From the NCBI GenBank assembly GCA_024711205.1, contig JANJTH010000259.1:1-46900 (forward strand): a stretch of 46,900 bases of DNA, given 5' to 3'. Source of the DNA: Planctomycetota bacterium (GTDB lineage: Bacteria; Planctomycetota; J058). Shown in pieces: positions 8,964 to 46,845 of this stretch (positions within the stretch are counted from its first letter, which is position 1; every line of letters begins with the position of its first letter). The notes under the pieces are model-generated. The model was given only the letters and a program-made list of their open reading frames with translations. It ran no database searches and was not told where the DNA came from. Position numbers and translations under genes: made by a program.

Positions 8964-10238
8964 TCAGCGCGCCTCGACGAGCCCTCGCACGAACGGGACG
9001 AGCGCCTCGGCCACGACGCGGTGTCCGGCCGCGGTCCAGTGCCGATCGACCGGAATGAACATGAGCTCGCCCGCGGCGTGCGCGGCCTGCAGCGCCGCGC
9101 GCGGCTCGCACACGGGCACGCCCGCCGCTTCGACGCGCGCTCGCAGGCCGTCGTTGATCGCGCGCGTCCCGAGGACCGTCTCGGCCAGGCTGCCCTCGAC
9201 CTGGGCCGAGGTCGGCGCGATCAGGACGCCAAAGCGGACGTCGGGCCCGAGCAGGCGCCGCGCCGCCTCGCGCCCGGCCAGGATCGCCGCGGCGCAGCGA
9301 TCGAGGAGCTCCGGCCGCTGCATGACCTGATAGCGCACGGCGTGGCGCCCGTGGGTCCAGGCGAGCAGCCGCCAGAGCTTCGACCTGCGCGCGAGCCAGG
9401 TCTGGAACAGCCAGTGCTCGCCGAGCGGGCGGGCCGCCTCCAGGTCGGGCTCGAGCGGGACACGGCCCTCGCGCCAGCGCAGGACGTCGGTCGGGTCATT
9501 GGCCGGCGTGAACTGCCACAGGACGACGTCGGGGCGGAGCTCCGGGACGAGGACCTCGACGGTCGCGAGCTCCTCGACCGGCCCGTACGAGACCACCCCG
9601 GCGTTCCACACGCGCACGGGCCGCGGCGCGAGCGCACCCGCCAGCCCCTGCTCGAGCGCCGCCGGAAACGCCTCGTCGTCGAGCACGCCCTCACCGAACG
9701 ACATGGAGTCGCCCACGACCAGGACCCGCAGCGCCCCCTCCGGCGGGTCGGGCCGGTCGGCGCCGCGCAGCCCCCGCCGGTCGGTGTGCGACGGCACGGC
9801 ACGCCCCTCGGGCGTACCGTCCGCGATCGGGCGCACGAAGCGGTGGTTCGGCCGCGGCCAGAACCCCCGCGTGGGGTCGGCCAGGTACGTCAGGTCGTAC
9901 CCCGTCGGCGAGCGCCAGAGGAACGCGATGTCGGCCTGGTGCTTGCCCACCGTCTCGTGGATCAGCCCCGCCCCCAGCGAGCCACCGCTGCGGAGCGGCC
10001 CCCCGTCGTCGGGCGCCAGGCGCTCCCAGCGCAGGCGGACGAAGCCCTCGGCCGCCTGCGCAGGGACGACGAGGAGCGCGACGACGAGCGCCCGCCGCAG
10101 ACGACGCCGGAGCGCGGCTCGGCGGGCGATCGCGCGATCGCGCGCGGTCGGCCCGGGCGTAGGCTCCCCGGGACCGTCCGGCGTGGTGGCACGAGGCGCG
10201 GGGGAGTCGAGGGGATCCGTGCTCACAGCAGCTCCCAC
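8964..10238 (-). CDS. Membrane-anchored SGNH/AlgX-like hydrolase or O-acyltransferase (paralog 1)
   Basis: One N-terminal hydrophobic anchor (ALVVALLVVPAQAAEG), block I VLVVGDSMSFGEG, and block V-like PVDRHWTAAGHRVVAEAL (DxHW...G as in AlgX/AlgJ/DltD). GTG starts at 10238 or 10226. Confidence 0.75.
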   Translation of the reverse strand: MGAAVSTDPLDSPAPRATTPDGPGEPTPGPTARDRAIARRAALRRRLRRALVVALLVVPAQAAEGFVRLRWERLAPDDGGPLRSGGSLGAGLIHETVGKHQADIAFLWRSPTGYDLTYLADPTRGFWPRPNHRFVRPIADGTPEGRAVPSHTDRRGLRGADRPDPPEGALRVLVVGDSMSFGEGVLDDEAFPAALEQGLAGALAPRPVRVWNAGVVSYGPVEELATVEVLVPELRPDVVLWQFTPANDPTDVLRWREGRVPLEPDLEAARPLGEHWLFQTWLARRSKLWRLLAWTHGRHAVRYQVMQRPELLDRCAAAILAGREAARRLLGPDVRFGVLIAPTSAQVEGSLAETVLGTRAINDGLRARVEAAGVPVCEPRAALQAAHAAGELMFIPVDRHWTAAGHRVVAEALVPFVRGLVEAR

Positions 10239-10427
10239 CGGCCTCGGCGTGACCGATCGCTCCGGCGCCCCGCTCCGCTCCGTTCCTCGCGGGAGTGAGC
10301 GAGCGCAGCTCGGGTTCTAGCCGCAGGACCTGGCACGAACAAGCCGCGCACTCGATCGCCCGCGGAGCTCCTCGCACGCCTGGACGTGACCAGGAGCCGC
10401 CACGAGAGGGGGTAGAGTCGCCGCCGG

Positions 10428-12386
10428 ATGACCCCTCCGCTGCGGCTCGCGCTCTGGCTCCTCGCGCTGACCGGCGCGCTGGCCGGTGCGGGAGCCCTGG
10501 CTCGCAGCCGGGGCGGCCTCGAGACGCTGCTGCTCGTGCTCCCCCTCGTCTGGCTGGGGCCGGCGCTCCGCCGAGCCCTGGTCCTGCGCGGCTGGCCGGC
10601 GGTGCCCTGCTGGGCCACAGCGGTAGAGGTTCTCGCGTGCACGGGCCTCGCGACCTATCCCGTGGGCACGTGGTCCCACGCGCTGCTGGCGATCGTCGCG
10701 GCGCGATCCGCGTTCGAGGTGGCACCCGCGACGGAGACGCCGGCGAGTCGCCTGGAGCGGAGCGCCCTCGGCGCGGCCGCGGCCGCGAGCCTCCTCGGGC
10801 CGATCGTGCTCGGCGCCCCCCAGCCGCTCCTCCTGGCGCTCGCCGCCGCCGTGGTCGGGCTCGAGGCCACGCGACTCCCCTGGACCTCGGGCCGCTCGCT
10901 CCGCTGGGCCACCGCGCTCGCCCTCGGGGGCGCCGGGACGGTCCTCGCTGGGTACGAGGGGCCGACGACCCGACTCCCGCTCGCGCACGACGCGGTGGCC
11001 GTCGCGCTGTCGGTCCTGCTCGTGCGAGCCCTCGCGGACCTCGCACGCGCCCGCTCGACCGCGTCTCCGGCCCTCCGAGCCGAGTCGCGCCGACGGACGT
11101 GGCTCGCGCTGCTCGGCGGGGCGGCGTTCCTGGCGACGTTCGAGCGTGGTCTGGGCGTCGGCGTCGTCGTCCGGGCGATCGCGTTCTCCACCCCGGCGCT
11201 GCTCCCGTCGCCCCGGCCACGCCTCGAGGCGGCGATCTGGGGCTGGGCGGCCCTCGCGATCCTGCTCGGTCGCCACGACGTGCTCGGCGACCTCGTCCCC
11301 CTCCTCGGGGTCGCCCCGTCCGCCGCGCTCCTCTGCGCACAAGGGCTCCTCGCCGCGGCCACCGTCCACGCCGCCTGGAGCGCCCTGGGCGCCGCGGCCC
11401 GCCTGGCCGGGGTGACGGCCACGGCGGTCGCCGGGGGGACGATCCTCCTGGGTGGCGAGGTCCTGGCGCCCTCGCGCGAGTTCGTCCTGCTGATCCAGCC
11501 GGCCGTCACGCCGGTCGTCGGCTCCTCGAACCTCCTCGAGGCCGGCGGAAGCGTCACGGACTTTCGCGAGCGTTCGTTCGGGCACGCGCCGCCTCCGGGC
11601 GTCCGACGGATCGCGCTCGTCGGCGCCTCGAGCGCGTGGGGCCACGCGCAGCGCTTGCGCGAGACCAGCCCGAGCGGCGTGCTGGAGCGGGCGCTCGCGG
11701 CCCGGGGCTCCCCGACCGAGGTGATGTGCCTGGCTTCCCCGGGCATGACGAGCGACCACTCGCTCGGGCAGGTCGCGGTCTTCGCGCGAGGCTGGGCGAT
11801 CGACCTGTTCCTCGTGGTCGACACCTACAACGACATGCACTTCCTCGCCCACCCCGACGCGACGCCCGGGGAGATCTACTTTTGGCGCCAGCATCTCGTG
11901 GGGCTCGACCACCCTCTCCGACGCGCGCTGCTCCAGCGCCGGCTCCTTCCGGCCGGCTTGCTGACGCGGGGCATGTCGCTCCCGCCGCGACCCGAGGCCG
12001 AGGTCGAGCGCGAGAACGGGTACTGGCTGGCAGGCCTCACGACGAACGAGGAGGCCATGACGCTGCTCGCCCGCGCGGGCGGCGCCTCGGTCGCCTGGTC
12101 CCGGGCCCCGCTCCACTTCGACGTCCACGGGCCGCGCGCCGACGAACCCCGCTATCGGGACCTGTTCCGCGCCCGGTGTGACGAGGTCGAGCGACGGGTC
12201 GCGCCCGCGGTCTCCCGCGCTGGTGGTTACGTGCTCGACCTCCCCGTGCGCATGCGCGACCGAGCGGCCGTGCTCGCGTCGGACGAAGTGTTGTTCGTGG
12301 ACCGTTGCCACTACACCGACCGAGGGGTCGAGGTCCTGGTGGACGCGATCCTGGGCGAGCTCGAGCGCGTCGGCTGGCTCCGCTGA
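10428..12386 (+). CDS. Polytopic membrane domain (~370 aa, about 10 hydrophobic segments) fused to an SGNH-like domain (paralog 2)
   Basis: ATG at 10428. The N-terminal two thirds consist of hydrophobic helices. The C-terminal part has RRIALVGASSAWGHA (block I with Ser) and VDRCHYTDRGVEVLVDAIL (DxxH block V). Confidence 0.75.
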   Translation: MTPPLRLALWLLALTGALAGAGALARSRGGLETLLLVLPLVWLGPALRRALVLRGWPAVPCWATAVEVLACTGLATYPVGTWSHALLAIVAARSAFEVAPATETPASRLERSALGAAAAASLLGPIVLGAPQPLLLALAAAVVGLEATRLPWTSGRSLRWATALALGGAGTVLAGYEGPTTRLPLAHDAVAVALSVLLVRALADLARARSTASPALRAESRRRTWLALLGGAAFLATFERGLGVGVVVRAIAFSTPALLPSPRPRLEAAIWGWAALAILLGRHDVLGDLVPLLGVAPSAALLCAQGLLAAATVHAAWSALGAAARLAGVTATAVAGGTILLGGEVLAPSREFVLLIQPAVTPVVGSSNLLEAGGSVTDFRERSFGHAPPPGVRRIALVGASSAWGHAQRLRETSPSGVLERALAARGSPTEVMCLASPGMTSDHSLGQVAVFARGWAIDLFLVVDTYNDMHFLAHPDATPGEIYFWRQHLVGLDHPLRRALLQRRLLPAGLLTRGMSLPPRPEAEVERENGYWLAGLTTNEEAMTLLARAGGASVAWSRAPLHFDVHGPRADEPRYRDLFRARCDEVERRVAPAVSRAGGYVLDLPVRMRDRAAVLASDEVLFVDRCHYTDRGVEVLVDAILGELERVGWLR

Positions 12387-12406
12387 GGCGCGCCGCGCCT
12401 CAGCGG
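12380..12406. terminator. Perfect 13-bp inverted repeat (CCGCTGAGGCGCG-C-CGCGCCTCAGCGG) between convergent genes; candidate bidirectional terminator
   Basis: Read directly from the sequence. The arms are 12380-12392 and 12394-12406. The TGA of the + gene (12384-12386) and the TCA (the minus-strand TGA stop) of the - gene (12400-12402) sit symmetrically inside the arms. No U-tract follows. Confidence 0.45.
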
Positions 12407-13182
12407 CTCGCGCCGTCGAGCCACGCGGCGACCGACTCGTGGGCGCGCACGTCGACGCCCAGGGCCTCGCGTGCACGCTCGAAGACGGCCGCGCGGCCGG
12501 CAGGCCCCAGCGAGGCTGGCGGTGCGAACACCCAGGTGAGCTCGACCCCGCGCCCCCGGGTCAGGGCCGCGAGCTGCGCCAGGCGGCCGACGTAGGCGTC
12601 GACGCGCGAGGACGTGGGGGGGGAGGGGAGCGCACGAGCGGGTCCGGGGAGCAGGAGCCGGCGAGCCAGTGCGCTGTTCCGGGCGGCCCACTCGCCGAGC
12701 GGGTCCTCGACCGCGAGCCGGTGCCATTCCCACTCCGTGGTCCAGCCGGGGGGGCGCTCTGGCGCGTCGAGCTCCTCGCCGTCCACGGCGACGACGCGCC
12801 GGACGCCGAGCACGGGCGCGTAGCGCGCGACGAGCAGGACCTCCTGCAGGGTCGTGTAACCATCCCGAGCCGCGACGCACGGCGGTTGTCCGTCGACGGG
12901 ACGCTGCTCACCCGCGACGCCGAGCGCGGCGGCCCCGCCGACCAGGAGGATCGGGCTCGGACCGACCGGCACCCCGAGGAAGTCACGCACGGGACGGGCG
13001 TCGGGCGCCGTCGCGAACGAGCCGCGCGGCGCCGCGCCGAGGACGAGGTGGAGCTCGTCGCGCCAGGGCGGCGGAGGCGCAACGACGACCCGCGCCCCCA
13101 GCTCCGCGAGGGCGACGGTCGAGAGGCCGAGTCCGGCCACGGCGAGGAGGAGGGCTTGCTTGCTCGGGACGGCTCTGCGCAT
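12400..13182 (-). CDS. Degenerate SGNH-like paralog (no obvious nucleophile), signal-anchored
   Basis: Track ORF 12400..13242. ATG at 13182 (MRRAVPSKQALLLAVAGLGLSTVALA) has GGAGA upstream. The position equivalent to block I reads PILLVGGAAALG (no Ser), and no DxxH is seen at the C-terminus. Composition is balanced and protein-like. Confidence 0.55.
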   Translation of the reverse strand: MRRAVPSKQALLLAVAGLGLSTVALAELGARVVVAPPPPWRDELHLVLGAAPRGSFATAPDARPVRDFLGVPVGPSPILLVGGAAALGVAGEQRPVDGQPPCVAARDGYTTLQEVLLVARYAPVLGVRRVVAVDGEELDAPERPPGWTTEWEWHRLAVEDPLGEWAARNSALARRLLLPGPARALPSPPTSSRVDAYVGRLAQLAALTRGRGVELTWVFAPPASLGPAGRAAVFERAREALGVDVRAHESVAAWLDGASR

Positions 13183-13276
13183 GGGCGGCGGAGTCTCCGC
13201 AGCCGCGGCGCCTCGCGCAACCGTATGCCGGGCGCTCCTCACGAGCTCGGCGCAAGGGCGGAAGAGGCCGGCGCGG

Positions 13277-14623
13277 TCACTCCCGAGCCGCCGGGAAGCC
13301 CGGCAGCGCCGCGAGGTGCTCCGCTACGCCCTCCGCGACGAGGCGGTACCCGCGCGGGGTGAAGTGCGTGTCGATCGGCCAGTAGTGCTCGAACAGCGCA
13401 TCGGAGGCGATCCGCGCGCGGAGCCATGGCGACAGGTCGCAGACGGGCAGGCCCAGGGCCTCGAGCTGCGTCCCCACGGCGCGCCGCCACAGGAGGCCCG
13501 GCCCCTCGGGCCCCGGGTGGACCTCCTGGATCAACGGGTGCAGGACGACGAGCGGCCGGAATCCCGACCGCTCGGCCAGCCCCGAGAAGCGTCGTCCGGC
13601 CTCGAGCAGCCCCGAGACCGCCTCGGCCTCGCGCGCCTCGCGATCATCGCGGTGGATCAGCAGGTAGTCGAAGCCGCCGTAGTCGAACACGAGGTGCCGG
13701 AAGAGGTGGCTCCGCGCGAACAGCGGCTCCCAGGTCGGGGCCGACCGATAGCGCACGGTCCCGTCGGGCGCGAATCGCTCGAAGCCTCCCCGGGTCATGA
13801 GGTCCATGACGTCCGAGCCGTTGAGCACGAGCAGCACGACGTCCGGCCCGTAGGCCAGCAGGCGCTCCTCGAGGAGGCGGAGCCCGAACACCGGGTCGCT
13901 GCCCGGAACACCCGCGCACAGCACCTCGACGCGCTCCACGCGCTCGAGTCGGTTCAGGTCGCGCTGGAGGACACGGGTCCACGCGTCCTCCAGCGCCGCG
14001 CCCTGGCTCATGGTGAAGGAGTCGCCCACTGCCACGATCCGATACACGCCCGCCGGCTTCTCGACGACGCGCTCGTCGTCGCGCAGGCCAAGCGAGTTCG
14101 TGACGACCTCGTGGGAGAACTCGGGCTGCGACATGGTGAACCGACGCCCCGCCCCGAGTGTGACGAGCGGCAACGTCCCTCGCGCGTCGTAGGGCGAGAC
14201 GTAGCCCGCCCCGTTCCGCTCGAGCCAGGTCCCGTACCGCCCCGTCGCTCGGAGCGCGAGCTCCGCCGCCAGGGTGCCCGAGAGCCAACTCACGAGCGCG
14301 ACGACGGCGCGCATGGCGCGACGGCGACTTCGTCGCCGGGGCGGCACTCCCATGCCGCCGGGACAAGGGCGAAGCAGCCAGGCGAGCGTGCCGATGGCCG
14401 CGAAGGCGACCAGGAACAGCCCCCAGCGCCGCGCGAGCCACTCCAGCCGGAGGGGGGCCGCCAACCGGGAGTGCGCGAGGAGCGCGACCACGAGCGCCAT
14501 GGCGGCCAGCGAGGCCGGCAGCGCACTGGCTGGATCCAGGCCCTGCGCCTCGCCCCGATCCTCCCCGTGATCGTCTCTTTCAAGCAAGGGCCGGTCTCCG
14601 TGCGAGCACTTGGGCAAGAACAT
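13277..14623 (-). CDS. Membrane-anchored SGNH/AlgX-like hydrolase or O-acyltransferase (paralog 3)
   Basis: YRIVAVGDSFTMSQG (block I) and YWPIDTHFTPRGYRLVAEGV (block V, DTH(W/F) type), with 2-3 N-terminal hydrophobic segments. Start is uncertain: ATG at 14623, 14656 or 14500. The Arg-rich extension to 14827 in the track ORF was rejected. Confidence 0.75.
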   Translation of the reverse strand: MFLPKCSHGDRPLLERDDHGEDRGEAQGLDPASALPASLAAMALVVALLAHSRLAAPLRLEWLARRWGLFLVAFAAIGTLAWLLRPCPGGMGVPPRRRSRRRAMRAVVALVSWLSGTLAAELALRATGRYGTWLERNGAGYVSPYDARGTLPLVTLGAGRRFTMSQPEFSHEVVTNSLGLRDDERVVEKPAGVYRIVAVGDSFTMSQGAALEDAWTRVLQRDLNRLERVERVEVLCAGVPGSDPVFGLRLLEERLLAYGPDVVLLVLNGSDVMDLMTRGGFERFAPDGTVRYRSAPTWEPLFARSHLFRHLVFDYGGFDYLLIHRDDREAREAEAVSGLLEAGRRFSGLAERSGFRPLVVLHPLIQEVHPGPEGPGLLWRRAVGTQLEALGLPVCDLSPWLRARIASDALFEHYWPIDTHFTPRGYRLVAEGVAEHLAALPGFPAARE

Positions 14624-14976
14624 ACCGGACCGTGTGCGCCTCGGACGAGTGTGCATGGCCTCGGGCCGAGCGACCGGTGGTGAGCCTCGCTGCCAACTCC
14701 CGGCGCGGGGCTCTCCCTTTCTGCCTCGGGCAATTCGGCCGCAGCAACGCACGCGGGCGAGTACGCCGTTCCATGGCCTCCCCGCGCTCGGGTCGGCAAG
14801 CAGGGGCTCGCGGTAGCCTCCTTGCATGGTCGCGACGAGCGCACGGGGCCGGACGCTGTGGCGCCGGCCTGCCTCCTCCTGGGCGGTGCGGCACGTTCGG
14901 GGGGACAGCCCGCGATGTGCTCCGGGCGCGCTCGTGGCGTGGGGGAGCGAACGACCTCAAGCCGGACGCGCTTCCT

Positions 14977-16794: not shown

Positions 16795-17868
16795 TCAACC
16801 TCGGCGCGCGACGAGCAGCGCGCTCGCCGCGCTCAGCTCCTCGCGAGGGAGGCCCCGGAAGTCCGCCGCGAGCTGGTGCTCCACCGGCTCGGGGACGTCC
16901 ACCCGCTCGACCCGAGTGGCGTGGACGTCCACGAAGCCCGCGCGCGCGAAGGCTTCCAGGAACCACCCGAGCCGCTTCCGGTTCGTGTAGTTGAACTTCC
17001 CCCTCCATGCTCGCTCCCACGTCGCTCCATCGATCGTCAGGAACTCCAGCGGGCCACGGCCCGGGCGGTGGTCCCGCAGGTCGATCTGATGCAGCCCGAG
17101 CCCGCCGGGGCGAAGGACGCGCGCCGTCTCCCGGATCACCTCGTCCGGCGCGGCGAAGTGCTCCATCGCGGCGTTCGAATAGACGACATCGAAGCTCCCG
17201 TCGGGGAACGGGAGCCGGGCGGCGTCGACGGGCTGGAGGAGCTGCACCTGGTCCCCGAAGCGTGCGCGTGCTCCGCCCAGGTCGACGATCGAGTCGAAGC
17301 GCTCGAGGACCCGTCGGCGTGTGGCGTCGTCCTCGCCCCCGAACAGGGACTCGTCTTCGGAGAGTCGCCGACGAAGGTCCAGGAAGTAGCGCGCCGAGTC
17401 GAGCGCGATCGGGAACAGATCGACCCCGCGGTAGGAGCGGGCGCCGAACGCGCAGAGGAGGGACCCGAGCGCCAGCGAGTATCCCGGCCCCAGCTCGAGG
17501 ATCCGAGCACCCTCGAGTGACACGCCGAGCTCCGCGAAGAGGGCGCGTGCGCGTCGCAGGTTCCCCAGCGCGTAGGCCAGGGAGCGGGGGTCCAGGGCCT
17601 CCCGCTGGCGCACGTGCTCGAAGATCGCATGGACCTCGAGCGGGGCCGCGATCTCGAGGACCACGTCCAGGAGGTCGGCGAACAATCTCGGGCGATGTTC
17701 CCCGATCGCGCCGAGCGCGTGGATCAGGCCAGCGCGGACTGGGCCTCCGGCGGCCGAGCCTCCCAGGAGGGACCTGAGCCCCTCCAGCCGCCGCCGGATC
17801 ACCGGACTCCCCGTGGTCGTCCTGAACCTAGCCGGAGTGCCCCCCGCCATGCCTCGCTCGCGGCGCAT
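16795..17868 (-). CDS. Class I SAM-dependent methyltransferase
   Basis: ILELGPGYSLALGSLL (motif I), FPDGSFDVVYSNAAMEHF and VLRPGGLGLHQIDL. ATG at 17868 is preceded by AAGGGGG. The rest of track ORF 16795..18324 is Arg-rich and overlaps the upstream gene. Confidence 0.8.
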   Translation of the reverse strand: MRRERGMAGGTPARFRTTTGSPVIRRRLEGLRSLLGGSAAGGPVRAGLIHALGAIGEHRPRLFADLLDVVLEIAAPLEVHAIFEHVRQREALDPRSLAYALGNLRRARALFAELGVSLEGARILELGPGYSLALGSLLCAFGARSYRGVDLFPIALDSARYFLDLRRRLSEDESLFGGEDDATRRRVLERFDSIVDLGGARARFGDQVQLLQPVDAARLPFPDGSFDVVYSNAAMEHFAAPDEVIRETARVLRPGGLGLHQIDLRDHRPGRGPLEFLTIDGATWERAWRGKFNYTNRKRLGWFLEAFARAGFVDVHATRVERVDVPEPVEHQLAADFRGLPREELSAASALLVARRG

Positions 17869-38043: not shown

Positions 38044-38265
38044 CCCCGGAGAGGACGACGCCGGGCAGGGCCTGACCGTGGGCGCGTCGAAGCCTCCTGG
38101 CCCCCTGGGCACCGACATGGACTAAGCCGTCCGGCGCCCGCAGGGACCGGGCTGGTCGCGGCCGCGCACGGGCGCTAGCTTGTCGGCCGCCCGGGTCCCA
38201 GCCCGGCGGCTCCGACGGCGATCACGCCGGCGAAGGGATCCGCCCGCTTGCACGCCGCGTCCGAG

Positions 38266-42303: not shown

Positions 42304-43355
42304 GTCTCCATGGCCCAGCCCATGAACCGGCGCAGCCCCTCGTCGAGCGCGACCTGCGGCTCGTAACCGAGCTGGAGCCTGGCCTTGCGCAGGTCGGGGC
42401 AGCGCCGCATGGGCTCGTCCGCGGGGTAGCTGTCGGGGTACTCGACGACGTCGCGCGCGACCTTGCGGCCGAGCACGCGCTCGAGCCGATCGGCCAGGTC
42501 GTGGACCGAGATCTCGGGGCTCGCGCAGCCGATGTTGTAGGGCTCGCCGGGGAGGCCCTTGAGCACGACGAGCAGGAACCCGACCATGGCGTCCGTGATG
42601 TAGCTGAACGTGCGCGTCTGCTTGCCCGTCCCGTAGAGGCGCAGCGGGTGGTCCCCCTTGATCCGGTTCGCGAAGTTGGGGAGCACCCGGTAGTCGGTCT
42701 CCTGCATGCCCGGCCCGTAGACGTTGAACGGGCGGATGCAGTTCGTGTGCGTCCCGTAGCGCTGGTGGAACACGTAGCAGAGCGTCTCGCCCACGCGCTT
42801 GCTCTCGTCGTAGCAGGCGCGCGGCCCCTGGCAGGCCACGTTGCCCCGGTAGCTCTCGGGCGTGGGCACGTGCGCCGCGTCGGGGTCGCCGTAGATCTCG
42901 CTCGAGCTGAAGAACGTGAGCCGCGCGCCCTGCGCGCGCGCCAGCTCGAGCATGTTCCGCGTCCCGCGGACCGCGACCTCGAGCGTCTCGAGCGGGTAGG
43001 CCCGGTAGTAGAACGGGCTCGCGATCCCGGCCGCGTGGATCACGTAGTGCACCGGGCCGTCCGGCGCGTAGGGCTCGATCACGTCGTGGCGCTGGAACTC
43101 TACCCCGGGCAGGTCCGGGACGACGGCGCCCTCCTTGCCCGCCGTGATCAGGTTGTCGAGCAGCACGACGCGACAGGGCTTCGCGAGGTGGTGCCGGTTG
43201 AGCCGGCCGAACACCTCGGCGAAGTAGCGGCCCAGGAAGCCGCGCCCGCCGGTGAGCAGCACGGTCTTGCCGGCGAGGTCGGCCGCGGCGGGCGCGATCC
43301 GGGTCGCGATCTCGTCGATGTCCGAGGCGAGCACGGGGCCAGGGCGGGTGGTCAA
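42285..43355 (-). CDS. NAD-dependent sugar-nucleotide dehydratase/decarboxylase (extended SDR, UXS/ArnA-C-terminal-like)
   Basis: C-terminal part of track ORF 42285..44552. KTVLLTGGRGFLGRYF Rossmann motif, catalytic YDESKRVGETLCYVF, FNVYGPGM and GKQTRTFSYITDAMVGF. TTG at 43355 overlaps the upstream TGA. GTG at 43334 is an alternative start. Confidence 0.8.
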   Translation of the reverse strand: MTTRPGPVLASDIDEIATRIAPAAADLAGKTVLLTGGRGFLGRYFAEVFGRLNRHHLAKPCRVVLLDNLITAGKEGAVVPDLPGVEFQRHDVIEPYAPDGPVHYVIHAAGIASPFYYRAYPLETLEVAVRGTRNMLELARAQGARLTFFSSSEIYGDPDAAHVPTPESYRGNVACQGPRACYDESKRVGETLCYVFHQRYGTHTNCIRPFNVYGPGMQETDYRVLPNFANRIKGDHPLRLYGTGKQTRTFSYITDAMVGFLLVVLKGLPGEPYNIGCASPEISVHDLADRLERVLGRKVARDVVEYPDSYPADEPMRRCPDLRKARLQLGYEPQVALDEGLRRFMGWAMETYTGEG

Positions 43356-44593
43356 TGGACTTCGACCTCCGGGAGGGGCACGACGAACCGGCCGCCCGCC
43401 TCGGCGAAGGCGCGCTGCTTCGCCATGATCGGGCCGGCGAAGTTCCAGGCCAGGATCAGGAGCGTGTCGGGGCGCCGCTCGGCGAGCGCGCTCGACGGCA
43501 CGACCGGCACGTGCAGGCCGGGCGTGTAGAGGCCCTGCTTGAGCGGGCTGTCGTCGACGATGAACTCGACCTCGTCGCGCCCGAGCCGGAAGTGGTGCAT
43601 GAGCGTCGTCGCCTTGGCCGGCGCCCCGAAGCCCGCCACGCGCCGCCCCGCGGCGCGCTCGGCCGCGAGGACCTCCCGCAGCCGCGCGCCCTTGCGCTCG
43701 ATGTCCTCGCCGAAGGCGCGCAGGCGCGCCGGGCGGTCGAGGCCCAGGGCCTCCTCGTGGGCGATCGCCGCCGAGACCGACGGGCGGACCGCGCGCGGGC
43801 CGCCCGCGAGCTGGGCCACGCCGCGGAGCGACCCGCCGTGCGTGTCGACGCGCACGGCGTCGATCAGCTCGAGCCCGTGGGCGCGCAGGAACGGGACGAG
43901 CGGCTTCACGGCGTGGTAGGCCACGTGCTCGTGGTAGATCGTGTCGAAGAGCGTCTTCTCGACCACGTCGACCAGGTAGCTCACCTCGAAGGCGAACAGC
44001 CCGTCGGGCGCGAGCAACGCCCGCACGCCGTCGGCGACCCCGCCCAGGTCGTCGACGTGCGCGAACACGTTGTTCGCCGTGACGACGCGCGCGGGCCCGA
44101 GCCGGGCTCGCAGGTCGGCCGCGAGCGCCGGCGTGAAGAAGGCCGCCTCGGTCGGCAGCCCGCGCCGCGTCGCCTCCTCGGCGATCGCCCGCGCCGGGTC
44201 GACGCCCTGCACGCGCTGGCCGGCGTCGGCGAAGAAGCGCAGGAGCGTCCCGTCGTTGCTCCCCACGTCCACGACGAGGTCGCCCTTCGCGAGCCCGACG
44301 TCGCGCGAGAGCGCGTCGGCGTAGCGGCGGAAGTGGTCGACGAACACGGGCGAGGTCCCCGAGACGTAGACGTAGTCCTCGAACAACCGGCGCGGGTCGA
44401 CCACGTCGCGGAGCTGCGCGTGCCCGCAGCCGCCGCACACGAACACGTCGAGCGGGAACCGCTCCTGCGCCACGTCCGGGCTGCGCACGAACTCGTTGGC
44501 GGGCGGCGTCGGGGCGAGCTGGAGCGCGAGCTCGAGGTCCGTCCCCCCGCACAGCCGGCAGTCGGGGCGCCGGCGGCAGCCGCCCGCCGTCAC
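43352..44593 (-). CDS. SAM-dependent sugar C-methyltransferase-like protein (TylCIII/NDP-hexose C-methyltransferase family) with N-terminal Cys4 zinc ribbon
   Basis: CRLCGG...CGGCGHAQL (putative Zn ribbon), YVYVSGTSPVFVDHFRRYA, VVDVGSNDGTLLRFF (motif I) and TANNVFAHVDDL. GTG start overlaps the upstream TGA (GTGA). Confidence 0.8.
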   Translation of the reverse strand: MTAGGCRRRPDCRLCGGTDLELALQLAPTPPANEFVRSPDVAQERFPLDVFVCGGCGHAQLRDVVDPRRLFEDYVYVSGTSPVFVDHFRRYADALSRDVGLAKGDLVVDVGSNDGTLLRFFADAGQRVQGVDPARAIAEEATRRGLPTEAAFFTPALAADLRARLGPARVVTANNVFAHVDDLGGVADGVRALLAPDGLFAFEVSYLVDVVEKTLFDTIYHEHVAYHAVKPLVPFLRAHGLELIDAVRVDTHGGSLRGVAQLAGGPRAVRPSVSAAIAHEEALGLDRPARLRAFGEDIERKGARLREVLAAERAAGRRVAGFGAPAKATTLMHHFRLGRDEVEFIVDDSPLKQGLYTPGLHVPVVPSSALAERRPDTLLILAWNFAGPIMAKQRAFAEAGGRFVVPLPEVEVH

Positions 44594-45468
44594 GCGCGCG
44601 CTCCGCTCGCGGCGCGCGGAGTGGTCGCCGGTGCCCCTCCGTTCGCCGTCGCCGCGGGCGCCGGCGTCAGGTCGCGCGGTGCAAGCCCCGGTCCGGGCCG
44701 CGTGCGGAGCGCGCGGAGGACCGGCGCCAGCGGCGAGCGCTCGCGGGCCCAGCCGCTCACGATCGCCTGGATCACGGCGACCGTGTGGTGGGCCCGGATC
44801 TTCTTGCCCTGCGCGTAGGTCCGCCCGTGGTAGTTGATCGGGACCTCGTAGATCACCTCGGCGCGCGGCACGATCTGCGAGAGGATCTCGGCCTGCTGCT
44901 CCCAGCCCGACGTCCCGAGCGCGCCCACGTCGAGGAGCGAGCGCCGGAACAGGAGGTAGCAGGTGTAGATGTCGGTGAAGGTCGTGTTGTTGAACACGTT
45001 GAACGTGAGCGACAGGACCTGGTTCCCGACCTTGTGCCAGAAGTAGTGCACGCGCGTGAACTGCGGCGCGTTGAGGCGGCTCCCCATGACGAGGTCCGCG
45101 TCGTGCCGGAGCACGGGCTCGAGGAGCAGCCGGTAGTCGTCGGGCTCGTACTCGAGGTCCGCGTCCTGGAAGAGCACGTAGTCGCCCGTCGCGGCCTCGA
45201 GCCCCGCCTTGACCGCCGCCCCCTTGCCCCCGTTGACCGGCATCTGGAGCAGGCGCGCGTAGAGGTCGGGGCGCGCGAGCAGGAGCTCGAGCGTCCGGTC
45301 GGTCGAGCCGTCGTCGACGACGATCACCTCGAGCTCGACGCCATCGATCCGCTGCCGCGCCACGCGCGACAGCAGTTCGACGATGGTGGCCTCCTCGTTG
45401 AAGGCCGGGACGATCACGGACAGGCGGATCACGCGCAGCGTTCTACCGGCGAGCGGGGGCGGGCACAA
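44590..45468 (-). CDS. GT2 glycosyltransferase with DPM1/GtrB-like catalytic motifs, no C-terminal TM helices
   Basis: LSVIVPAFNEEATIVELL, VIVVDDGSTDRT, FQDADLEYEPDDY and TDIYTCYLLFR. The track start is TTG at 45468. GTG at 45432 (VIRLSVIVP...) is an equally plausible start. Confidence 0.85.
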   Translation of the reverse strand: MCPPPLAGRTLRVIRLSVIVPAFNEEATIVELLSRVARQRIDGVELEVIVVDDGSTDRTLELLLARPDLYARLLQMPVNGGKGAAVKAGLEAATGDYVLFQDADLEYEPDDYRLLLEPVLRHDADLVMGSRLNAPQFTRVHYFWHKVGNQVLSLTFNVFNNTTFTDIYTCYLLFRRSLLDVGALGTSGWEQQAEILSQIVPRAEVIYEVPINYHGRTYAQGKKIRAHHTVAVIQAIVSGWARERSPLAPVLRALRTRPGPGLAPRDLTPAPAATANGGAPATTPRAASGARA

Positions 45469-45543
45469 GCCGTGACCGCGGACGCGTGCCGACGCCCGGC
45501 CGGGCCGCCCGCGACTCCGGCCCGTCCCTGCACCAGCGCCATG

Positions 45544-46845
45544 TCAGACCCGCCGGGCGAGCCGCGCCAGGTCGTCGCCGCGGGCGCGCGCGAACCGGCC
45601 GAGGAACCCCGCCGGGCCGACGGGGCGCGGCGCCTCCGCCTCGGCGAACAGGTCCCCGTAGGCCGCGACCACCGCGTCGAGCGCGAACGCCGCCGACCGC
45701 CGCCGCGCGCGCTCCCCGAGGGTGGCCCGCCGGGCCGGGTCGAGGAGCAGGTCGGCGACCGCGCGGGCGAGCGCGTCCGCGTCGTCGCCCGGCACGAGCA
45801 CGCCGCAGGGGACCTCGCCCGGCTCGTCCGGGCGTTCGCCACCCTCGGGGACCGCGCCGCCGCCGGCGCCCACGTCGGGCCCGGGGCCCGCCCCCGGCTC
45901 GGGCGTGAGCGCCTCGCGGTTCGCGGGGAGGTCGGAGGCGACGATCGCCGTCCCGGCCGCCATGGCCTCGAGGAGCGCGTTCGAGAGCCCCTCGGCCCGC
46001 GAGGGCAGCACGAACACGCTCGCCCCGCGCAGGAGCCCCGGGACGTCGTCGCGGCGCCCGAGGAAGACGACCGAGGCGCCGATCCCCAGCGCCTCGACCT
46101 CGCGCCGCAGGGCCGCCTCCTCGGGCCCCTCGCCGGCCACGAGCAGGCGTGCCTCGGGCGCCCGCGAGAGGACCCGCGGCCAGGCGCGCAGGAGCCGGTC
46201 GAGCCCCTTCTGCCGGTCGAGCCGCCCGACGAACAGCGCGGTCGGCCCCGCGCCCGCGGGGCGCACGAGCTCGGCCCGCGCGACCGCGGCGAGGTCCACG
46301 CCGTTGGGGATCCGCGCGACGCGCGCGGCGGGGAACCCGGCCGCGAGGGCCTCCGCCTCGACCTCGCGCGACGGGCACACGAGCCGGCACCCGGCCAGGT
46401 CCGCCGCGACGACCGCGCGGTCCGACGGCGCGAGCCGCGCGAGCGCCGCCATGTCGCCCTCCGCGCGCGCGCACGCGAGCTTGACCACGACGGGCGCGCC
46501 GAGCAGCCGCCCGAGCCGCGCCCCGATCGCGCCCATCATGAGCTGCACGGCGTAGAGCACGCGCCAGCGGTCCCGCCGCGCCCACAGGACCGCCGCGGCC
46601 GCGGCCTCGAAGCCGGCGAGCGGGAGGCGCACGACCTCGACGCCGTCGCGGACCTCCTCCCAGCGCGCCGGGAGCGCCCACGCCCCGGGCGCCGTGCACG
46701 TGAGCAGCGTGACCGGCTCGCCCCGCGCGACGAGCCCGCGCGCCAGCGCCATGGCCTGCCGCTCCATGCCGCCCAGCCCGTCGACGTCGCGCACGAGGAC
46801 CGCGACCCCCCGGCCCGCGCCGGGGCCGGCCCCCAGGCGCGCCAC
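45544..46845 (-). CDS. GT4 family glycosyltransferase
   Basis: VAVLVRDVDGLGGMERQAMALARGL, FVGRLDRQKGLDRLL and PSRAEGLSNALLEAMAAGTAIVASD. The start is near the window end and not firmly placed. Confidence 0.85.
   Translation of the reverse strand: MARLGAGPGAGRGVAVLVRDVDGLGGMERQAMALARGLVARGEPVTLLTCTAPGAWALPARWEEVRDGVEVVRLPLAGFEAAAAAVLWARRDRWRVLYAVQLMMGAIGARLGRLLGAPVVVKLACARAEGDMAALARLAPSDRAVVAADLAGCRLVCPSREVEAEALAAGFPAARVARIPNGVDLAAVARAELVRPAGAGPTALFVGRLDRQKGLDRLLRAWPRVLSRAPEARLLVAGEGPEEAALRREVEALGIGASVVFLGRRDDVPGLLRGASVFVLPSRAEGLSNALLEAMAAGTAIVASDLPANREALTPEPGAGPGPDVGAGGGAVPEGGERPDEPGEVPCGVLVPGDDADALARAVADLLLDPARRATLGERARRRSAAFALDAVVAAYGDLFAEAEAPRPVGPAGFLGRFARARGDDLARLARRV

What the first reader, a model, noticed from the sequence alone, without database searches (positions are those of the whole stretch)
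8964..46845. ~38-kb glycan island with unusual amplification of periplasmic tailoring functions
After ~8.9 kb of ordinary genes, essentially every gene is glycan-related. The content is 5 GT-C-like polytopic proteins, 4 SGNH/AlgX-like proteins plus 1 degenerate copy, and 5 SAM methyltransferases. There are also 2 DPM1/GtrB-like GT2s, 3 GT4s, a Wzm/Wzt-type exporter, a UXS-like SDR and a radical SAM enzyme. I see no Wzx, Wzy, Wza/PCP or priming phosphoglycosyltransferase in the window. The mix suggests an ABC-transporter-dependent polymer that is then heavily glycosylated, acylated and methylated outside the cytoplasm. I do not recognise this combination and copy number as a described locus type.
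Basis: partly seen in the sequence, partly recalled or inferred. Interest (0 to 1): 0.75.

Follow-up and report, generated by a model that had tools for sequence, protein, structure and literature searches.

The report
Glycan locus with five novel GT-C transferases
This is a roughly 40-kb surface-polysaccharide gene cluster: a sugar chain is built in the cytoplasm, exported by an ABC transporter, and probably decorated outside the membrane by five copies of a rare, uncharacterised membrane glycosyltransferase family that recurs with the same partner genes in a few other uncultured bacteria.

Summary
The gene inventory is confirmed almost item by item. There are five class-I or sugar methyltransferases, two polyprenyl-phosphate-sugar-synthase-like GT2s and three GT4s. 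There is also a Wzm/Wzt exporter, a UXS-like SDR, a radical SAM enzyme and three clear SGNH proteins, plus one divergent copy. The "degenerate" fifth SGNH copy (G9) has no support.

The five polytopic proteins match no Pfam, NCBIfam or PDB sequence. They are nevertheless paralogues of one rare family: about 45 clusters among 1.84 billion representative proteins. A profile built from them reaches bona fide PMT_2 proteins. A confident AlphaFold model (pLDDT 86) hits GT-C enzymes almost exclusively (ArnT, Emb, AftA, PglB, STT3, Pmt).

The same family sits next to G30-like GT2s, methyltransferases and SGNH genes on unrelated metagenomic contigs. One of these (L013) is a second "amplified" locus.

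Best reading: an ABC-transporter-dependent glycan, probably an LPS O-polysaccharide, decorated in the periplasm by several Gtr/Arn-like lipid-linked-donor systems.

The methyltransferases have no predicted membrane segment, so they are most likely cytoplasmic. The island probably starts near 5852. I rate it a new variant of a known kind, of moderate interest.

The parts
5852..6805 (-). G5. SDR nucleotide-sugar epimerase/dehydratase (GalE/TviC-like). Probably the true left edge of the island.
   Evidence: Pfam Epimerase E 7e-66. NCBIfam best matches are galE and TviC, below their cut-offs.
7059..8954 (+). G6. AsnB-type glutamine amidotransferase. Candidate sugar-carboxylate amidase, as in EPS and O-antigen loci.
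   Evidence: Pfam Asn_synthase E 7e-96. NCBIfam asn_synth_AEB is above its cut-off, and the top match is the XrtA/PEP-CTERM amidotransferase. A 39%-identical homologue lies next to a GT4 and two genes from the GT-C homologue in L001.
8964..10226 (-). G7. SGNH protein with one N-terminal membrane segment.
   Evidence: Pfam ALGX 36.3 bits (local match only) and Lipase_GDSL_2. GDS, ND and DxH blocks are intact. One membrane segment.
10428..12386 (+). G8. Polytopic N-terminal domain of about 10 membrane segments, unassigned, fused to a divergent SGNH-like C-terminal domain (GASS in place of GDS).
   Evidence: No Pfam or NCBIfam hit. hhalign against the SGNH profile gives 85%, E 6e-6. Not related to the GT-C family.
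12400..13242 (-). G9. Unknown protein.
   Evidence: No family hit. hhalign against the SGNH profile gives E 0.55. Coding potential is weak but present.
13277..14656 (-). G10. Membrane-anchored SGNH protein.
   Evidence: Lipase_GDSL_2 36.5 bits, above the cut-off. Catalytic blocks intact. A 48%-identical homologue lies in the L004 cassette.
14977..16791 (-). G11. GT-C-fold polytopic protein, subfamily 1.
   Evidence: 34-36% identical to G24 and G26. Family profile E 3e-161. Has the PDTTSY...EVRT motif.
16795..17802 (-). G12. Class-I SAM methyltransferase with no predicted membrane segment (likely cytoplasmic).
   Evidence: Methyltransf_11 E 7e-15. No membrane segment.
18161..19210 (-). G13. GtrB/ArnC/DPM1-like GT2 with C-terminal membrane segments. 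Polyprenyl-phosphate-sugar synthase candidate.
   Evidence: Glycos_transf_2 E 6e-24. NCBIfam best matches are dolichyl-phosphate hexose transferase, AglJ, PpgS and ArnC. Membrane segments at residues 238-294.
19170..19607 (-). G13b. Small membrane protein of about 4 segments, between the GT-C gene G14 and the GT2 gene G13. A flippase candidate by position only.
   Evidence: Coding by GC3. Membrane segments. No GtrA or any other Pfam match even at E up to 10.
19604..21364 (-). G14. Most divergent GT-C-fold paralogue, subfamily 3.
   Evidence: hhalign against the family profile gives 97.3%, E 1.9e-11, with IDSY and EVRS aligned to the conserved motifs. hmmsearch E 9e-17.
21476..23287 (-). G15. 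N-terminal membrane domain plus SGNH domain.
   Evidence: Lipase_GDSL_2 E 2e-7, 31.9 bits, just under the cut-off. Catalytic blocks intact.
23565..24581 (+). G16. Class-I methyltransferase with a C-terminal tail of about 170 aa. First gene of the exporter operon. Candidate chain-terminating methyltransferase.
   Evidence: Methyltransf_11 E 4e-22. A 41%-identical homologue in L013. The terminator role is inference only.
24865..25755 (+). G17. TylF-family O-methyltransferase.
   Evidence: Pfam TylF E 5e-16. A 56%-identical homologue in L013.
25813..27111 (+). G18. Wzt-type ABC ATPase with an unassigned C-terminal extension of about 190 aa.
   Evidence: ABC_tran. PDB best matches are Aquifex Wzt at E 3.5e-58, TarH/TagH and mycobacterial RfbE. 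The extension has no Pfam or PDB match.
27108..27956 (+). G19. Wzm-type ABC-2 permease.
   Evidence: ABC2_membrane E 7e-11. NCBIfam galactan Wzm/RfbD match, below its cut-off.
28102..29538 (+). G20. GT4 glycosyltransferase, cytoplasmic backbone synthesis.
   Evidence: Glycos_transf_1 and Glyco_transf_4. 43% identical to G31.
29554..31542 (-). G21. Radical SAM enzyme with an N-terminal SPASM/twitch domain.
   Evidence: SPASM and Radical_SAM. NCBIfam N_Twi_rSAM 97.8 bits, below its cut-off. Start codon set from the translation.
31688..33499 (+). G22. GT4 with a conserved N-terminal extension of about 200 aa.
   Evidence: Pfam. Near-full-length homologues at 42-47% identity occur three times in L013, and at 34% identity over the GT4 region in L001.
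33592..34758 (+). Decayed IS630-family insertion sequence. Not part of the pathway.
   Evidence: DDE_3 match. Transposase reading frame interrupted by a stop codon and a frameshift. Candidate terminal inverted repeats. Independent assemblies break here.
35026..37263 (+). G24. GT-C-fold polytopic protein, subfamily 1.
   Evidence: 52% identical to G26. Called as a 745-aa protein in the public collection.
37297..38043 (+). G25. Class-I methyltransferase, a conserved partner of the GT-C family.
   Evidence: Pfam. A 67%-identical homologue lies adjacent to the GT-C homologue in L004. Methyltransferases also sit next to the GT-C homologues in L012, L013, L016 and the P0014 contig.
38248..40260 (+). 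G26. GT-C-fold polytopic protein; the modelled representative.
   Evidence: AlphaFold2 pLDDT 86.3, pTM 0.86. The top PDB fold matches are GT-C enzymes almost exclusively. D128 is invariant; Y132 and R148 are nearly invariant (at least 90%).
40465..42303 (+). G27. GT-C-fold polytopic protein, subfamily 2.
   Evidence: 29% identical to G24 and G26. Groups with P0045 in the tree. 39% and 33% identical to the two GT-C homologues in L013.
42285..43355 (-). G28. UDP-glucuronate-decarboxylase-like (UXS-like) SDR.
   Evidence: PDB human UXS1 E 9e-57. Pfam Epimerase.
43352..44593 (-). G29. Nucleotide-sugar 3-C-methyltransferase homologue.
   Evidence: Methyltransf_13 and Methyltransf_14. PDB D-mycarose 3-C-methyltransferase E 6e-91; TcaB9 E 5e-74.
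44590..45468 (-). G30. Soluble DPM1/ArnC-like GT2. The most frequent genomic partner of the GT-C family.
   Evidence: PDB DPMS, ArnC and GtrB. NCBIfam AglJ, PpgS and ArnC. Homologues at 44-60% identity lie beside GT-C homologues in L004, L009 and L013, and at 28% in L012.
45544..46845 (-). G31. GT4 glycosyltransferase. Its start is uncertain, and the locus may continue past the window end.
   Evidence: Pfam. The reading frame is open to position 46899.

Best explanation
The locus makes a cell-surface polysaccharide, most likely an LPS O-polysaccharide, by the ABC-transporter-dependent route. It then decorates that polymer in the periplasm using several lipid-linked-donor systems of the Gtr/Arn type.

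1. Inferred: cytoplasmic GT4s (G20, G22, G31) build the chain on undecaprenyl diphosphate.
2. Inferred: cytoplasmic methyltransferases (G16, G17) methylate or cap it.
3. Family assignment shown, substrate inferred: Wzm/Wzt (G19/G18) export it.
4. Enzyme homologies shown, pathway inferred: nucleotide sugars are tailored in parallel. The UXS-like G28 and the 3-C-methyltransferase G29 may give a C-methyl pentose. G5, G6 and the radical SAM G21 make further changes.
5. Inferred: the sugars are loaded onto undecaprenyl phosphate by the DPM1/ArnC/GtrB-like GT2s G30 and G13. The small class-I methyltransferases G25 and G12 possibly methylate them at that stage.
6. Inferred: the donors are flipped across the membrane by an unidentified flippase.
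7. Fold and paralogy shown, activity inferred: five paralogues of a new, divergent PMT_2/ArnT-like GT-C family (G11, G14, G24, G26, G27) transfer the sugars to different acceptor positions.
8. Catalytic motifs shown, reaction inferred: membrane-anchored SGNH enzymes (G7, G8, G10, G15) add or remove ester-linked acyl groups on the periplasmic side.
For: - Exporter: the Wzt ATPase domain matches Aquifex Wzt at E 3.5e-58, and an ABC-2 permease is present. No Wzx, Wzy or PCP family was hit in any called gene.
- GT-C paralogy: shown.
- GT-C profile link: the family profile finds 545 proteins. Of 79 that were scanned, 26 are PMT_2 and 8 are PMT. P0050 and P0057 match the profile at E about 1e-19 to 1e-21 and pass the PMT_2 gathering cut-off.
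- GT-C fold: the model has pLDDT 86. The first 27 PDB fold matches are all GT-C enzymes, with probability 0.82-1.00.
- GT-C catalytic motif: an Asp is invariant in a PD(S/T)xxY loop after a membrane helix that is preceded by an Arg-rich segment.
- Donor synthases: G30 and G13 best match DPMS, ArnC, GtrB, AglJ and PpgS.
- Conserved neighbourhoods:
  - L004 has GT2 (60% to G30), MT (67% to G25), GT-C, B12-radical SAM and SGNH (48% to G10).
  - The P0014 contig has MT, GT-C, SDR, C-methyltransferase and GT2.
  - L009 and L012 have GT-C with GT2, plus an MT in L012.
  - L013 has 2 GT-C, 4 SGNH-like, 3 or more MT, one GT2 and 3 G22-like GT4.
- LPS link: an LpxL-like acyltransferase gene overlaps the start of the homologue in L005 and L006. 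HldE is present in L004.
- Precedent: ABC-dependent O-polysaccharides are modified in the periplasm by three-component systems with new GT-C families (PMC11127046).
Against: - No biochemical data exist, and no donor or acceptor is identified.
- None of the five proteins reaches any curated GT-C family directly.
- Fold matches have modest E-values (1e-3 to 0.1) and low global TM-scores (0.16-0.40).
- No recognisable flippase: G13b has no GtrA match.
- No priming phosphoglycosyltransferase or WaaL ligase lies in the window, so the LPS assignment rests on neighbours of homologues elsewhere.
- The C-terminal extension of Wzt is not recognisable as a carbohydrate-binding module.
- No MBOAT or AT3 acyl-donor translocase is present, so an acyltransferase role for the SGNH proteins is unsupported.
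- SGNH genes accompany the family in only 2 of 9 outside contexts.
- The organism and its envelope type are unknown.
Confidence: 0.55

Rival explanations
1. Mycobacterial-style extracytoplasmic polymerisation. The exported chain is only a primer. The five GT-C paralogues, fed by two polyprenyl-phosphate-sugar synthases, build a whole branched glycan domain outside the membrane. This would parallel Aft/Emb or Mpt enzymes building arabinan or mannan on galactan or LM exported by Wzm/Wzt.
For: The number of GT-C paralogues (five here, two in L013) and their split into three deep subfamilies resemble the Aft/Emb/Mpt division of labour. EmbA/B/C and AftA are among the top fold matches. Wzt and Wzm also match the mycobacterial galactan exporter models, below their cut-offs. 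Only three cytoplasmic GT4s are present.
Against: The fold matches do not discriminate between Emb/Aft and ArnT, PglB or Pmt. No carbohydrate-binding modules like those of Emb or AftD were detected. In several other contigs the family occurs as a single copy with one GT2, which is typical of a decorating system.
Confidence: 0.18
2. Lipid A or core modification. The GT-C proteins act like ArnT, RgtA-D, LgmB or FlmK, adding sugars from undecaprenyl-phosphate donors to lipid A or the core oligosaccharide rather than to the polymer.
For: The UXS-like SDR, tailoring enzyme and ArnC-like GT2 with GT-C (G28-G30 plus G26/G27; also on the P0014 contig) parallel the Arn pathway. ArnT is the second-best fold match. 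The L005/L006 homologue overlaps an LpxL-type lipid A acyltransferase gene, and L004 carries HldE. Rhizobium has four Rgt GT-C enzymes served by one GT2 (my knowledge).
Against: In the window the GT-C genes are interleaved with a Wzm/Wzt exporter, GT4s and methyltransferases typical of polymer synthesis. No lipid A or core genes lie in the window.
Confidence: 0.15
3. Protein O-glycosylation. The GT-C proteins are PMT-like enzymes that glycosylate secreted or membrane proteins from polyprenyl-phosphate sugars. The exporter-dependent polymer would be a separate product of the same island.
For: The nearest recognisable sequence relatives are PMT_2 and PMT proteins. Pmt1, Pmt2 and Pmt4 are among the fold matches. 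GtrB-type GT2s with GT-C enzymes glycosylate proteins in streptococci (PMC12041528).
Against: PMT_2 also covers ArnT-like lipid and glycan transferases. No MIR domain is present. Tight linkage to polysaccharide genes in at least five contigs. No candidate acceptor protein in the locus.
Confidence: 0.07
4. The polytopic proteins are not glycosyltransferases. They could be polymerase, ligase or scaffold-like membrane proteins, or transporters. In that case the island is an ordinary ABC-dependent polysaccharide locus with accessory membrane proteins.
For: No direct curated-family hit. Low TM-scores.
Against: The fold hits are near-exclusively GT-C. There is an invariant loop Asp. The family is repeatedly linked to polyprenyl-phosphate-sugar-synthase-like GT2s.
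Confidence: 0.05

Closest known systems
Three-component periplasmic O-antigen glycosylation systems: GtrA/GtrB/GtrC of Shigella and Salmonella, Klebsiella galactosylation, Citrobacter youngae ORF12/14/15 (GT136) (PMC11127046)
   Same: A lipid-phosphate sugar donor is made by a cytoplasmic-face enzyme (here GtrB/DPM1-like GT2s). A polytopic GT-C-fold enzyme then acts in the periplasm on a finished polymer. The polymer can be ABC-transporter-dependent.
   Different: The GT-C family here has no sequence match to GtrC types, GT136 or any curated family. There are five paralogues and two synthases rather than one of each. No GtrA, SMR or MATE flippase is recognisable. Cytoplasmic methyltransferases and SGNH proteins are conserved partners.
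Arn, Rgt, Lgm and Flm lipid A/core modification pathways (ArnA-ArnC-ArnT; RgtE with RgtA-D)
   Same: Same logic: a UDP-GlcA-decarboxylase-type SDR, then sugar tailoring, then an ArnC-like GT2, then an ArnT-like GT-C. ArnT is among the best fold matches. One GT2 can serve several GT-C enzymes, as RgtE does.
   Different: There is no aminotransferase, formyltransferase or deformylase. Tailoring is by a 3-C-methyltransferase. The system is embedded in a polymer-export locus. Direct Pfam/NCBIfam scans of the five proteins, including the PMT_2 model that covers ArnT-like enzymes, gave no hit.
Mycobacterial arabinogalactan and LAM assembly (Wzm/Wzt galactan export; Ppm1, PpgS and DPPR synthases; Aft, Emb and Mpt GT-C enzymes)
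   Same: A cytoplasmic polymer is exported by Wzm/Wzt. Multiple GT-C paralogues use polyprenyl-phosphate sugars outside the membrane. The glycan also carries acyl and methyl decorations.
   Different: Different GT-C families. The relatives found elsewhere sit near LPS genes (LpxL-like, HldE). No Emb-type carbohydrate-binding modules. Polymerising activity is untested.
E. coli O8/O9a-type ABC-transporter-dependent O-antigen synthesis with a terminal methyl cap (WbdD, with the Wzt carbohydrate-binding module)
   Same: Methyltransferase genes lie immediately upstream of wzt-wzm. Wzt has a long C-terminal extension.
   Different: The Wzt extension does not match Wzt_C or any solved structure. A terminator role for G16 or G17 is untested.
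SGNH-type glycan O-acyl enzymes (OafA/OafB AT3-SGNH fusions, PatB/Ape, AlgX/AlgJ)
   Same: Membrane-anchored or membrane-fused SGNH domains with a Ser/Asp/His triad, encoded in a glycan locus.
   Different: No AT3 or MBOAT partner or domain. ALGX similarity is confined to the DxHW stretch. The N-terminal polytopic domain of G8 is unassigned.

Membership tests
GT-C glycosyltransferase superfamily | Polytopic membrane protein (7-13 helices) with a conserved acidic residue in the first extracytoplasmic loop | tested here: met
   About 9-12 hydrophobic segments in each paralogue. D128 in PD(S/T)xxY is invariant across 79 relatives, and Y132 and R148 are nearly invariant. The loop follows a helix preceded by an Arg-rich segment; the outside orientation is inferred from the positive-inside rule.
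GT-C glycosyltransferase superfamily | GT-C fold by structure comparison | tested here: met
   AF2 model with pLDDT 86.3 and pTM 0.86. The first 27 Foldseek PDB matches are all GT-C (Emb, ArnT, AftA, PglB, STT3, AglB, ALG3, Pmt) with probability 0.82-1.00. E-values are only 1e-3 to 0.1 and TM-scores 0.16-0.40.
PMT_2 / PMT (GT39/GT83-type) curated families | Protein scores above the family gathering threshold | tested here: not met
   No Pfam, NCBIfam or PDB-sequence hit for G11, G14, G24 (core), G26 or G27. The link is only transitive: proteins matching the window profile at E 1e-19 to 1e-21 pass the PMT_2 cut-off.
GT-C glycosyltransferase superfamily | Uses a polyprenyl-phosphate-linked sugar donor | not testable with these tools
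   Indirect only. A DPM1/ArnC/GtrB-like GT2 lies near the family member in 6 of 9 outside contexts and twice in the window.
Gtr-type three-component modification system | GtrB-like polyprenyl-phosphate glycosyl synthase (GT2) | tested here: met
   G13 (with C-terminal membrane segments) and G30 best match DPMS, ArnC, GtrB, AglJ and PpgS. All equivalog scores are below their cut-offs, so sugar specificity is unknown.
Gtr-type three-component modification system | Small GtrA/SMR-type (or MATE) flippase | tested here: not met
   G13b (145 aa, about 4 membrane segments, between GT-C and GT2) has no GtrA or other Pfam match at E up to 10. No MATE or SMR family was hit in the scanned genes (G3-G31). 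A flippase is therefore missing or of an unrecognised type.
ABC-transporter-dependent (Wzm/Wzt) polysaccharide pathway | Wzm ABC-2 permease plus Wzt ATPase, and absence of Wzx/Wzy | tested here: met
   No Wzx, Wzy or PCP family was hit in any called gene.
ABC-transporter-dependent (Wzm/Wzt) polysaccharide pathway | Wzt C-terminal carbohydrate-binding module that recognises a capped terminus | tested here: inconclusive
   An extension of about 190 aa exists but has no Pfam (including Wzt_C) or PDB sequence match.
ABC-transporter-dependent (Wzm/Wzt) polysaccharide pathway | Priming phosphoglycosyltransferase and WaaL ligase (needed for an O-antigen assignment) | tested here: not met
   None in the window. 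They may lie elsewhere in the genome, as is common. The window ends at G31.
SGNH hydrolase/acyltransferase superfamily | Block I GDS, block III GxND and block V DxxH catalytic motifs | tested here: met
   G7, G10 and G15. Pfam Lipase_GDSL_2 and PDB GDSL esterases also match. G8 is divergent, with GASS. G9 fails.
AlgX/AlgJ-type O-acetyltransferases | Full-length ALGX domain, and an MBOAT partner (AlgI-like) | tested here: not met
   ALGX matches cover only about 54 of 268 profile positions around DxHW. PDB AlgJ and AlgX match at E 0.015-0.04. No MBOAT in the window.
OafA/OafB-type AT3-SGNH fusions (considered for G8 and G15) | N-terminal Acyl_transf_3 domain | tested here: not met
   No Acyl_transf_3 match for the N-terminal domains of G8 or G15, even at E up to 10.

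The most novel reading that the evidence does not exclude
The recurring cassette is GT2 synthase, small cytoplasmic methyltransferase, new GT-C, and sometimes an SGNH protein and a radical SAM enzyme. It could be a previously undescribed 'donor-tailoring' system. In it, the sugar would be methylated (O- or C-) while already on undecaprenyl phosphate or just before loading, then flipped by an unrecognised flippase. A new CAZy-level GT-C family would then install it. Five-fold amplification of this cassette would let a Gram-negative bacterium assemble a branched, methylated and acylated glycan domain outside the cytoplasm, a mycobacterial-arabinan-like strategy in LPS-type glycans.
Probability: 0.22. 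Interest if true: 0.8.

Novelty: new variant of a known kind. Interest (0 to 1): 0.55.

Why it matters
If the assignment holds, the five proteins belong to a GT-C family with no curated model and no characterised member. It would probably merit a new CAZy family, as GT136 did in 2024.

The family travels with a conserved polyprenyl-phosphate-sugar synthase and a conserved small methyltransferase. The methyltransferase partnership is not a feature of the known Gtr, Arn or GT136 systems. It points to methylated or C-branched sugars being delivered through lipid-phosphate carriers.

The locus and its counterpart L013 offer defined gene sets for finding new periplasmic glycan chemistry in uncultured high-GC lineages. 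These gene sets are also candidates for glycoengineering.

The overall logic, however, is already established: an ABC-exported polymer followed by periplasmic decoration.

Tried and rejected
- The word-indexed homologue search with G26, and again with the paralogue alignment, returned only G26 itself, its paralogue G24 and one 80%-identical fragment. The candidate list was saturated. The exhaustive HMMER search was needed.
- The first AF2 model, from a 5-sequence alignment, was unusable (pLDDT 50). It was replaced by the 55-sequence model.
- PDB sequence searches with G26 and with a 79-sequence family profile gave nothing meaningful.
- The GTDB genome scan found one locus and the metagenome scan found two, one of them the same contig, because both rely on exact peptide patterns.
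- G9 as a degenerate SGNH protein: rejected.
- The N-terminal domain of G8 as a GT-C family member: rejected.
- The N-terminal domains of G8 and G15 as AT3-type acyltransferases, or as relatives of each other: rejected.
- G13b as GtrA: no support.
- The C-terminal extension of Wzt as a known carbohydrate-binding module: no support.
- The 928-aa ORF 29554-32340 is an artefact of high GC. The real G21 starts at 31542, and the reverse frame overlaps the G22 upstream region.
- The 943-aa ORF 34432-37263 fuses an IS630 transposase remnant to G24. The real start is 35026.
- Literature searches found no description of this gene combination.

Full report
**Gene calling**

The window is 69-79% GC. Mechanical ORF lists are dominated by artefacts. 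I called genes from third-position GC and frame consistency and obtained about 32 genes.

From left to right:
- G1 is an M16-type peptidase, judged from its HxxEH motif by eye.
- G2 is a PLP enzyme, also by eye.
- G3 is a Bax1-I membrane protein.
- G4 is an unknown lipoprotein-like protein.
- The glycan genes follow.

Two long ORFs are artefacts:
- 29554-32340. The real G21 starts at 31542.
- 34432-37263. This fuses an IS630 transposase remnant to G24, whose real start is 35026.

**Observation**

- Five methyltransferases: G12, G16, the TylF-family G17, G25 and G29.
- G29 is a close homologue of solved sugar 3-C-methyltransferases: D-mycarose 3-C-methyltransferase at E 6e-91, and TcaB9.
- Two GT2s, G13 and G30. 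Their best matches are dolichyl- or undecaprenyl-phosphate sugar synthases: DPMS, ArnC, GtrB, AglJ and PpgS. G13 has the C-terminal membrane segments typical of GtrB and ArnC.
- Three GT4s: G20, G22 and G31.
- Wzt (G18), whose ATPase domain best matches Aquifex aeolicus Wzt at E 3.5e-58, followed by TarH/TagH and mycobacterial RfbE.
- Wzm (G19).
- G28, which best matches human UDP-glucuronate decarboxylase UXS1 at E 9e-57.
- G21, a radical SAM enzyme with an unusual N-terminal SPASM/twitch domain.

No Wzx, Wzy, PCP/OPX, phosphoglycosyltransferase, WaaL, MBOAT or AT3 family was hit in any called gene of 4051-46845; G1 and G2 were not scanned. No unassigned gap is large enough to hide a gene, apart from the IS remnant.

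**SGNH proteins**

G7, G10 and G15 are mutually homologous. They match Lipase_GDSL_2 and, locally, ALGX. They keep the GDS, ND and DxH catalytic blocks in canonical SGNH order. Each follows an N-terminal membrane segment or segments, so the catalytic domain is plausibly periplasmic.

The C-terminal half of G8 is a divergent relative: hhalign 85%, E 6e-6, with GASS in place of GDS. Its N-terminal domain of about 10 helices matches nothing.

G9 shows no similarity. The 'fifth degenerate copy' is therefore unsupported.

The ALGX similarity covers only the DxHW stretch. These are SGNH proteins, not demonstrable AlgX-family members. With no MBOAT or AT3 partner, the direction of the reaction (acyl transfer or esterase) is open.

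**The polytopic proteins**

- G11, G24 and G26 are 34-52% identical. G27 is about 29% identical to them. G14 joins at the profile level: hhalign 97.3%, E 1.9e-11, with IDSY and EVRS aligned on the conserved PD(S/T)xxY and ExRT motifs.
- None has any Pfam, NCBIfam or PDB-sequence hit.
- An exhaustive HMMER search with a profile of the window paralogues, against 1.84 billion representative proteins, found only 45 proteins at E below 1e-30 and 545 at E below 1e-3.
- Of 79 hits scanned, 26 are PMT_2, 8 are PMT, 1 is GT87 and 1 is GT22.
- Individual proteins that match the window profile at E 2.9e-21 (P0050) and 7.8e-19 (P0057) pass the PMT_2 gathering threshold. The family is therefore a divergent offshoot of the PMT_2/ArnT-like GT-C proteins.
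- With a 55-sequence alignment, AlphaFold2 gave a confident model of G26 (pLDDT 86.3, pTM 0.86).
- The first 27 Foldseek PDB matches to that model are all GT-C enzymes: EmbA/B/C, ArnT, AftA, PglB, STT3, AglB, ALG3 and Pmt1. ALG9, Pmt4 and PimE follow further down, interleaved with non-GT-C hits. Probabilities are 0.82-1.00. E-values (1e-3 to 0.1) and TM-scores (0.16-0.40) show that no solved family is close.
- D128 is invariant. Y132, R148, P262, G317 and P429 are nearly invariant (at least 90%).
- The architecture is about nine helices, then an all-helical soluble domain of about 230 residues, then three C-terminal helices.
- A rough neighbour-joining tree places G24 and G26 as recent duplicates. 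G11 sits in the same subclade as homologues from other organisms. G27 is in a second deep clade with P0045, and G14 is an outlier. The 'amplification' therefore combines one local duplication with three old subfamilies.

**Neighbourhoods elsewhere**

| Context | Neighbours of the GT-C homologue |
|---|---|
| L001 (Thermoanaerobaculaceae MAG, GC 0.73) | AsnB, GT4, GT-C, G22-like GT4, GT4, GtrB-like GT2, another polytopic protein |
| L004 | GT2 (60% to G30), MT (67% to G25), GT-C (41% to G24), B12-radical SAM, SGNH (48% to G10), HldE |
| P0014 contig | MT, GT-C, oxidoreductase, SDR, C-methyltransferase, cupin, GT2 (the same module as window G25-G30), plus LPG_synthase_TM proteins |
| L009 | GT-C, GT2 (58% to G30) |
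| L012 | GT-C, GT2, MT |
| L016 | MT, LPG_synthase_TM protein, GT-C |
| L005 / L006 | An LpxL-type lipid A acyltransferase gene overlaps the start of the GT-C gene |
| L013 (40.8-kb contig, GC 0.71) | A second amplified locus; see below |

L013 contains:
- a TylF methyltransferase (56% to G17);
- a methyltransferase (41% to G16);
- three G22-like GT4s (42-47%);
- a protein with membrane segments and a weak SGNH match;
- a methyltransferase (33% to G12);
- a GT-C homologue (39% to G27);
- a GT2 (44% to G30);
- an SGNH protein;
- a second GT-C homologue (33% to G27);
- two more SGNH proteins;
- an unassigned 12-helix protein.

Outside the window, a polyprenyl-phosphate-synthase-like GT2 accompanies the family in 6 of 9 contexts, a class-I methyltransferase in 5 of 9, and an SGNH protein in 2 of 9. 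It is strongest for the GT2 and the methyltransferase.

**Mechanism**

The family assignments above are shown. The pathway itself is inferred.

1. GT4s build a chain in the cytoplasm.
2. G16 and G17 lie directly upstream of wzt-wzm, and Wzt has a C-terminal extension of about 190 aa. This suggests terminal methylation and recognition as in E. coli O8/O9a. The extension matches no known carbohydrate-binding module, so this step is weak.
3. G28 (UXS-like) and G29 (3-C-methyltransferase) are co-transcribed with G30 (ArnC/DPM1-like). The same trio occurs on the P0014 contig. This mirrors the Arn logic: UDP-GlcA is decarboxylated through a 4-keto-pentose, which is tailored, loaded on undecaprenyl phosphate, flipped, and transferred by a GT-C enzyme.
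4. C-methyl sugars have precedent in O-antigens, for example virenose in Coxiella (PMC3539893).
5. All five methyltransferases have no predicted membrane segment (hydropathy scan). Methylation is therefore most likely cytoplasmic, on nucleotide sugars, on lipid-linked donors or on the chain terminus.
6. The flippase is unidentified. Candidates are G13b, by its position between GT-C and GT2, the unassigned polytopic domains of G8 and G15, and, in other contigs, LPG_synthase_TM proteins.
7. Post-polymerisation periplasmic glycosylation of ABC-dependent O-polysaccharides by three-component systems with new GT-C families is established (PMC11127046).

**Rivals**

- Periplasmic polymerisation in the mycobacterial Aft/Emb style.
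- ArnT/Rgt-like modification of lipid A or core.
- PMT-like protein O-glycosylation (compare PMC12041528).
- The polytopic proteins not being transferases at all.

The present data do not separate the first three. The fourth is disfavoured by the fold, the invariant Asp and the GT2 linkage.

**Boundaries and extras**

- G5 (SDR epimerase-type) and G6 (AsnB-type amidotransferase, with a homologue two genes from the GT-C homologue in L001) probably belong to the island, which moves its start to about 5852.
- GC falls from about 0.77 to 0.69-0.72 across roughly 13-31 kb and again to about 0.70 around 35-38 kb.
- A decayed IS630-family element lies at about 33592-34758. It coincides with the ends of two independent Logan assemblies of the same sequence.

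**Verdict**

The system is a new variant of a known kind. Its most interesting component is a rare, uncharacterised GT-C family with conserved GT2 and methyltransferase partners.

Noticed in passing
window 33592-34758: A decayed IS630-family insertion sequence lies between G22 and G24. Its transposase frame is interrupted by a stop codon and a frameshift, and there are candidate 19-nt terminal inverted repeats. Two independent Logan assemblies of this sequence (SRR19748635, SRR19748633) end about 20 bp downstream of its right end, which suggests a repeat in the genome.
   Followed up: partly
window 5852-8954: G5 (GalE/TviC-like SDR) and G6 (AsnB-type amidotransferase) lie just outside the reported start and are probably part of the glycan island. 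An AsnB homologue (39% identity) lies next to a GT4 and two genes from the GT-C homologue in L001.
   Followed up: partly
window 13000-39000: GC content drops from about 0.77 in the flanks to 0.69-0.72 across roughly 13-31 kb and again to about 0.70 around 35-38 kb. It rises to 0.76-0.79 at 39-42 kb. This may reflect mosaic or horizontal origin of parts of the island.
   Followed up: no
window 23565-24581 and 26533-27111: The methyltransferase G16 has a C-terminal tail of about 170 aa rich in Leu, Arg and Glu (possibly a coiled coil) and sits directly upstream of wzt. Wzt has an unassignable C-terminal extension of about 190 aa. Together these resemble the WbdD terminator and Wzt carbohydrate-binding-module arrangement, but no sequence support was found.
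   Followed up: partly
window 29554-31542: The radical SAM enzyme G21 has its SPASM/twitch domain at the N-terminus, the reverse of the usual order. It also has a C-terminal region of about 260 aa with no match. In L004 the corresponding cassette position is held by a B12-binding radical SAM enzyme instead.
   Followed up: partly
P0014 contig and L016 3385-4455: LPG_synthase_TM (MprF flippase-domain) proteins lie next to the methyltransferase and the GT-C homologue in two unrelated contigs. They are candidate lipid-linked-sugar flippases. No recognisable homologue lies in the window.
   Followed up: no
L005 3362-6006 and L006 4151-6822: In two NCBI assemblies, a lipid A biosynthesis acyltransferase (LpxL-type) gene overlaps the start of the GT-C homologue by 4 bp. 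This hints at an LPS-related role for at least that branch of the family.
   Followed up: no
L013 1891-7120; window 31688-33499: G22-type GT4s carry a conserved N-terminal extension of about 200 aa with no Pfam match. They occur as three tandem paralogues in L013, so the extension looks like an uncharacterised domain specific to this locus type.
   Followed up: no
L001 15675-17648; L013 18814-20970: Two further large polytopic proteins (657 aa; 718 aa with about 12 helices) lie in the related loci. They have no Pfam hit and no similarity to the window's GT-C family. They may be additional unrecognised membrane glycan enzymes.
   Followed up: partly
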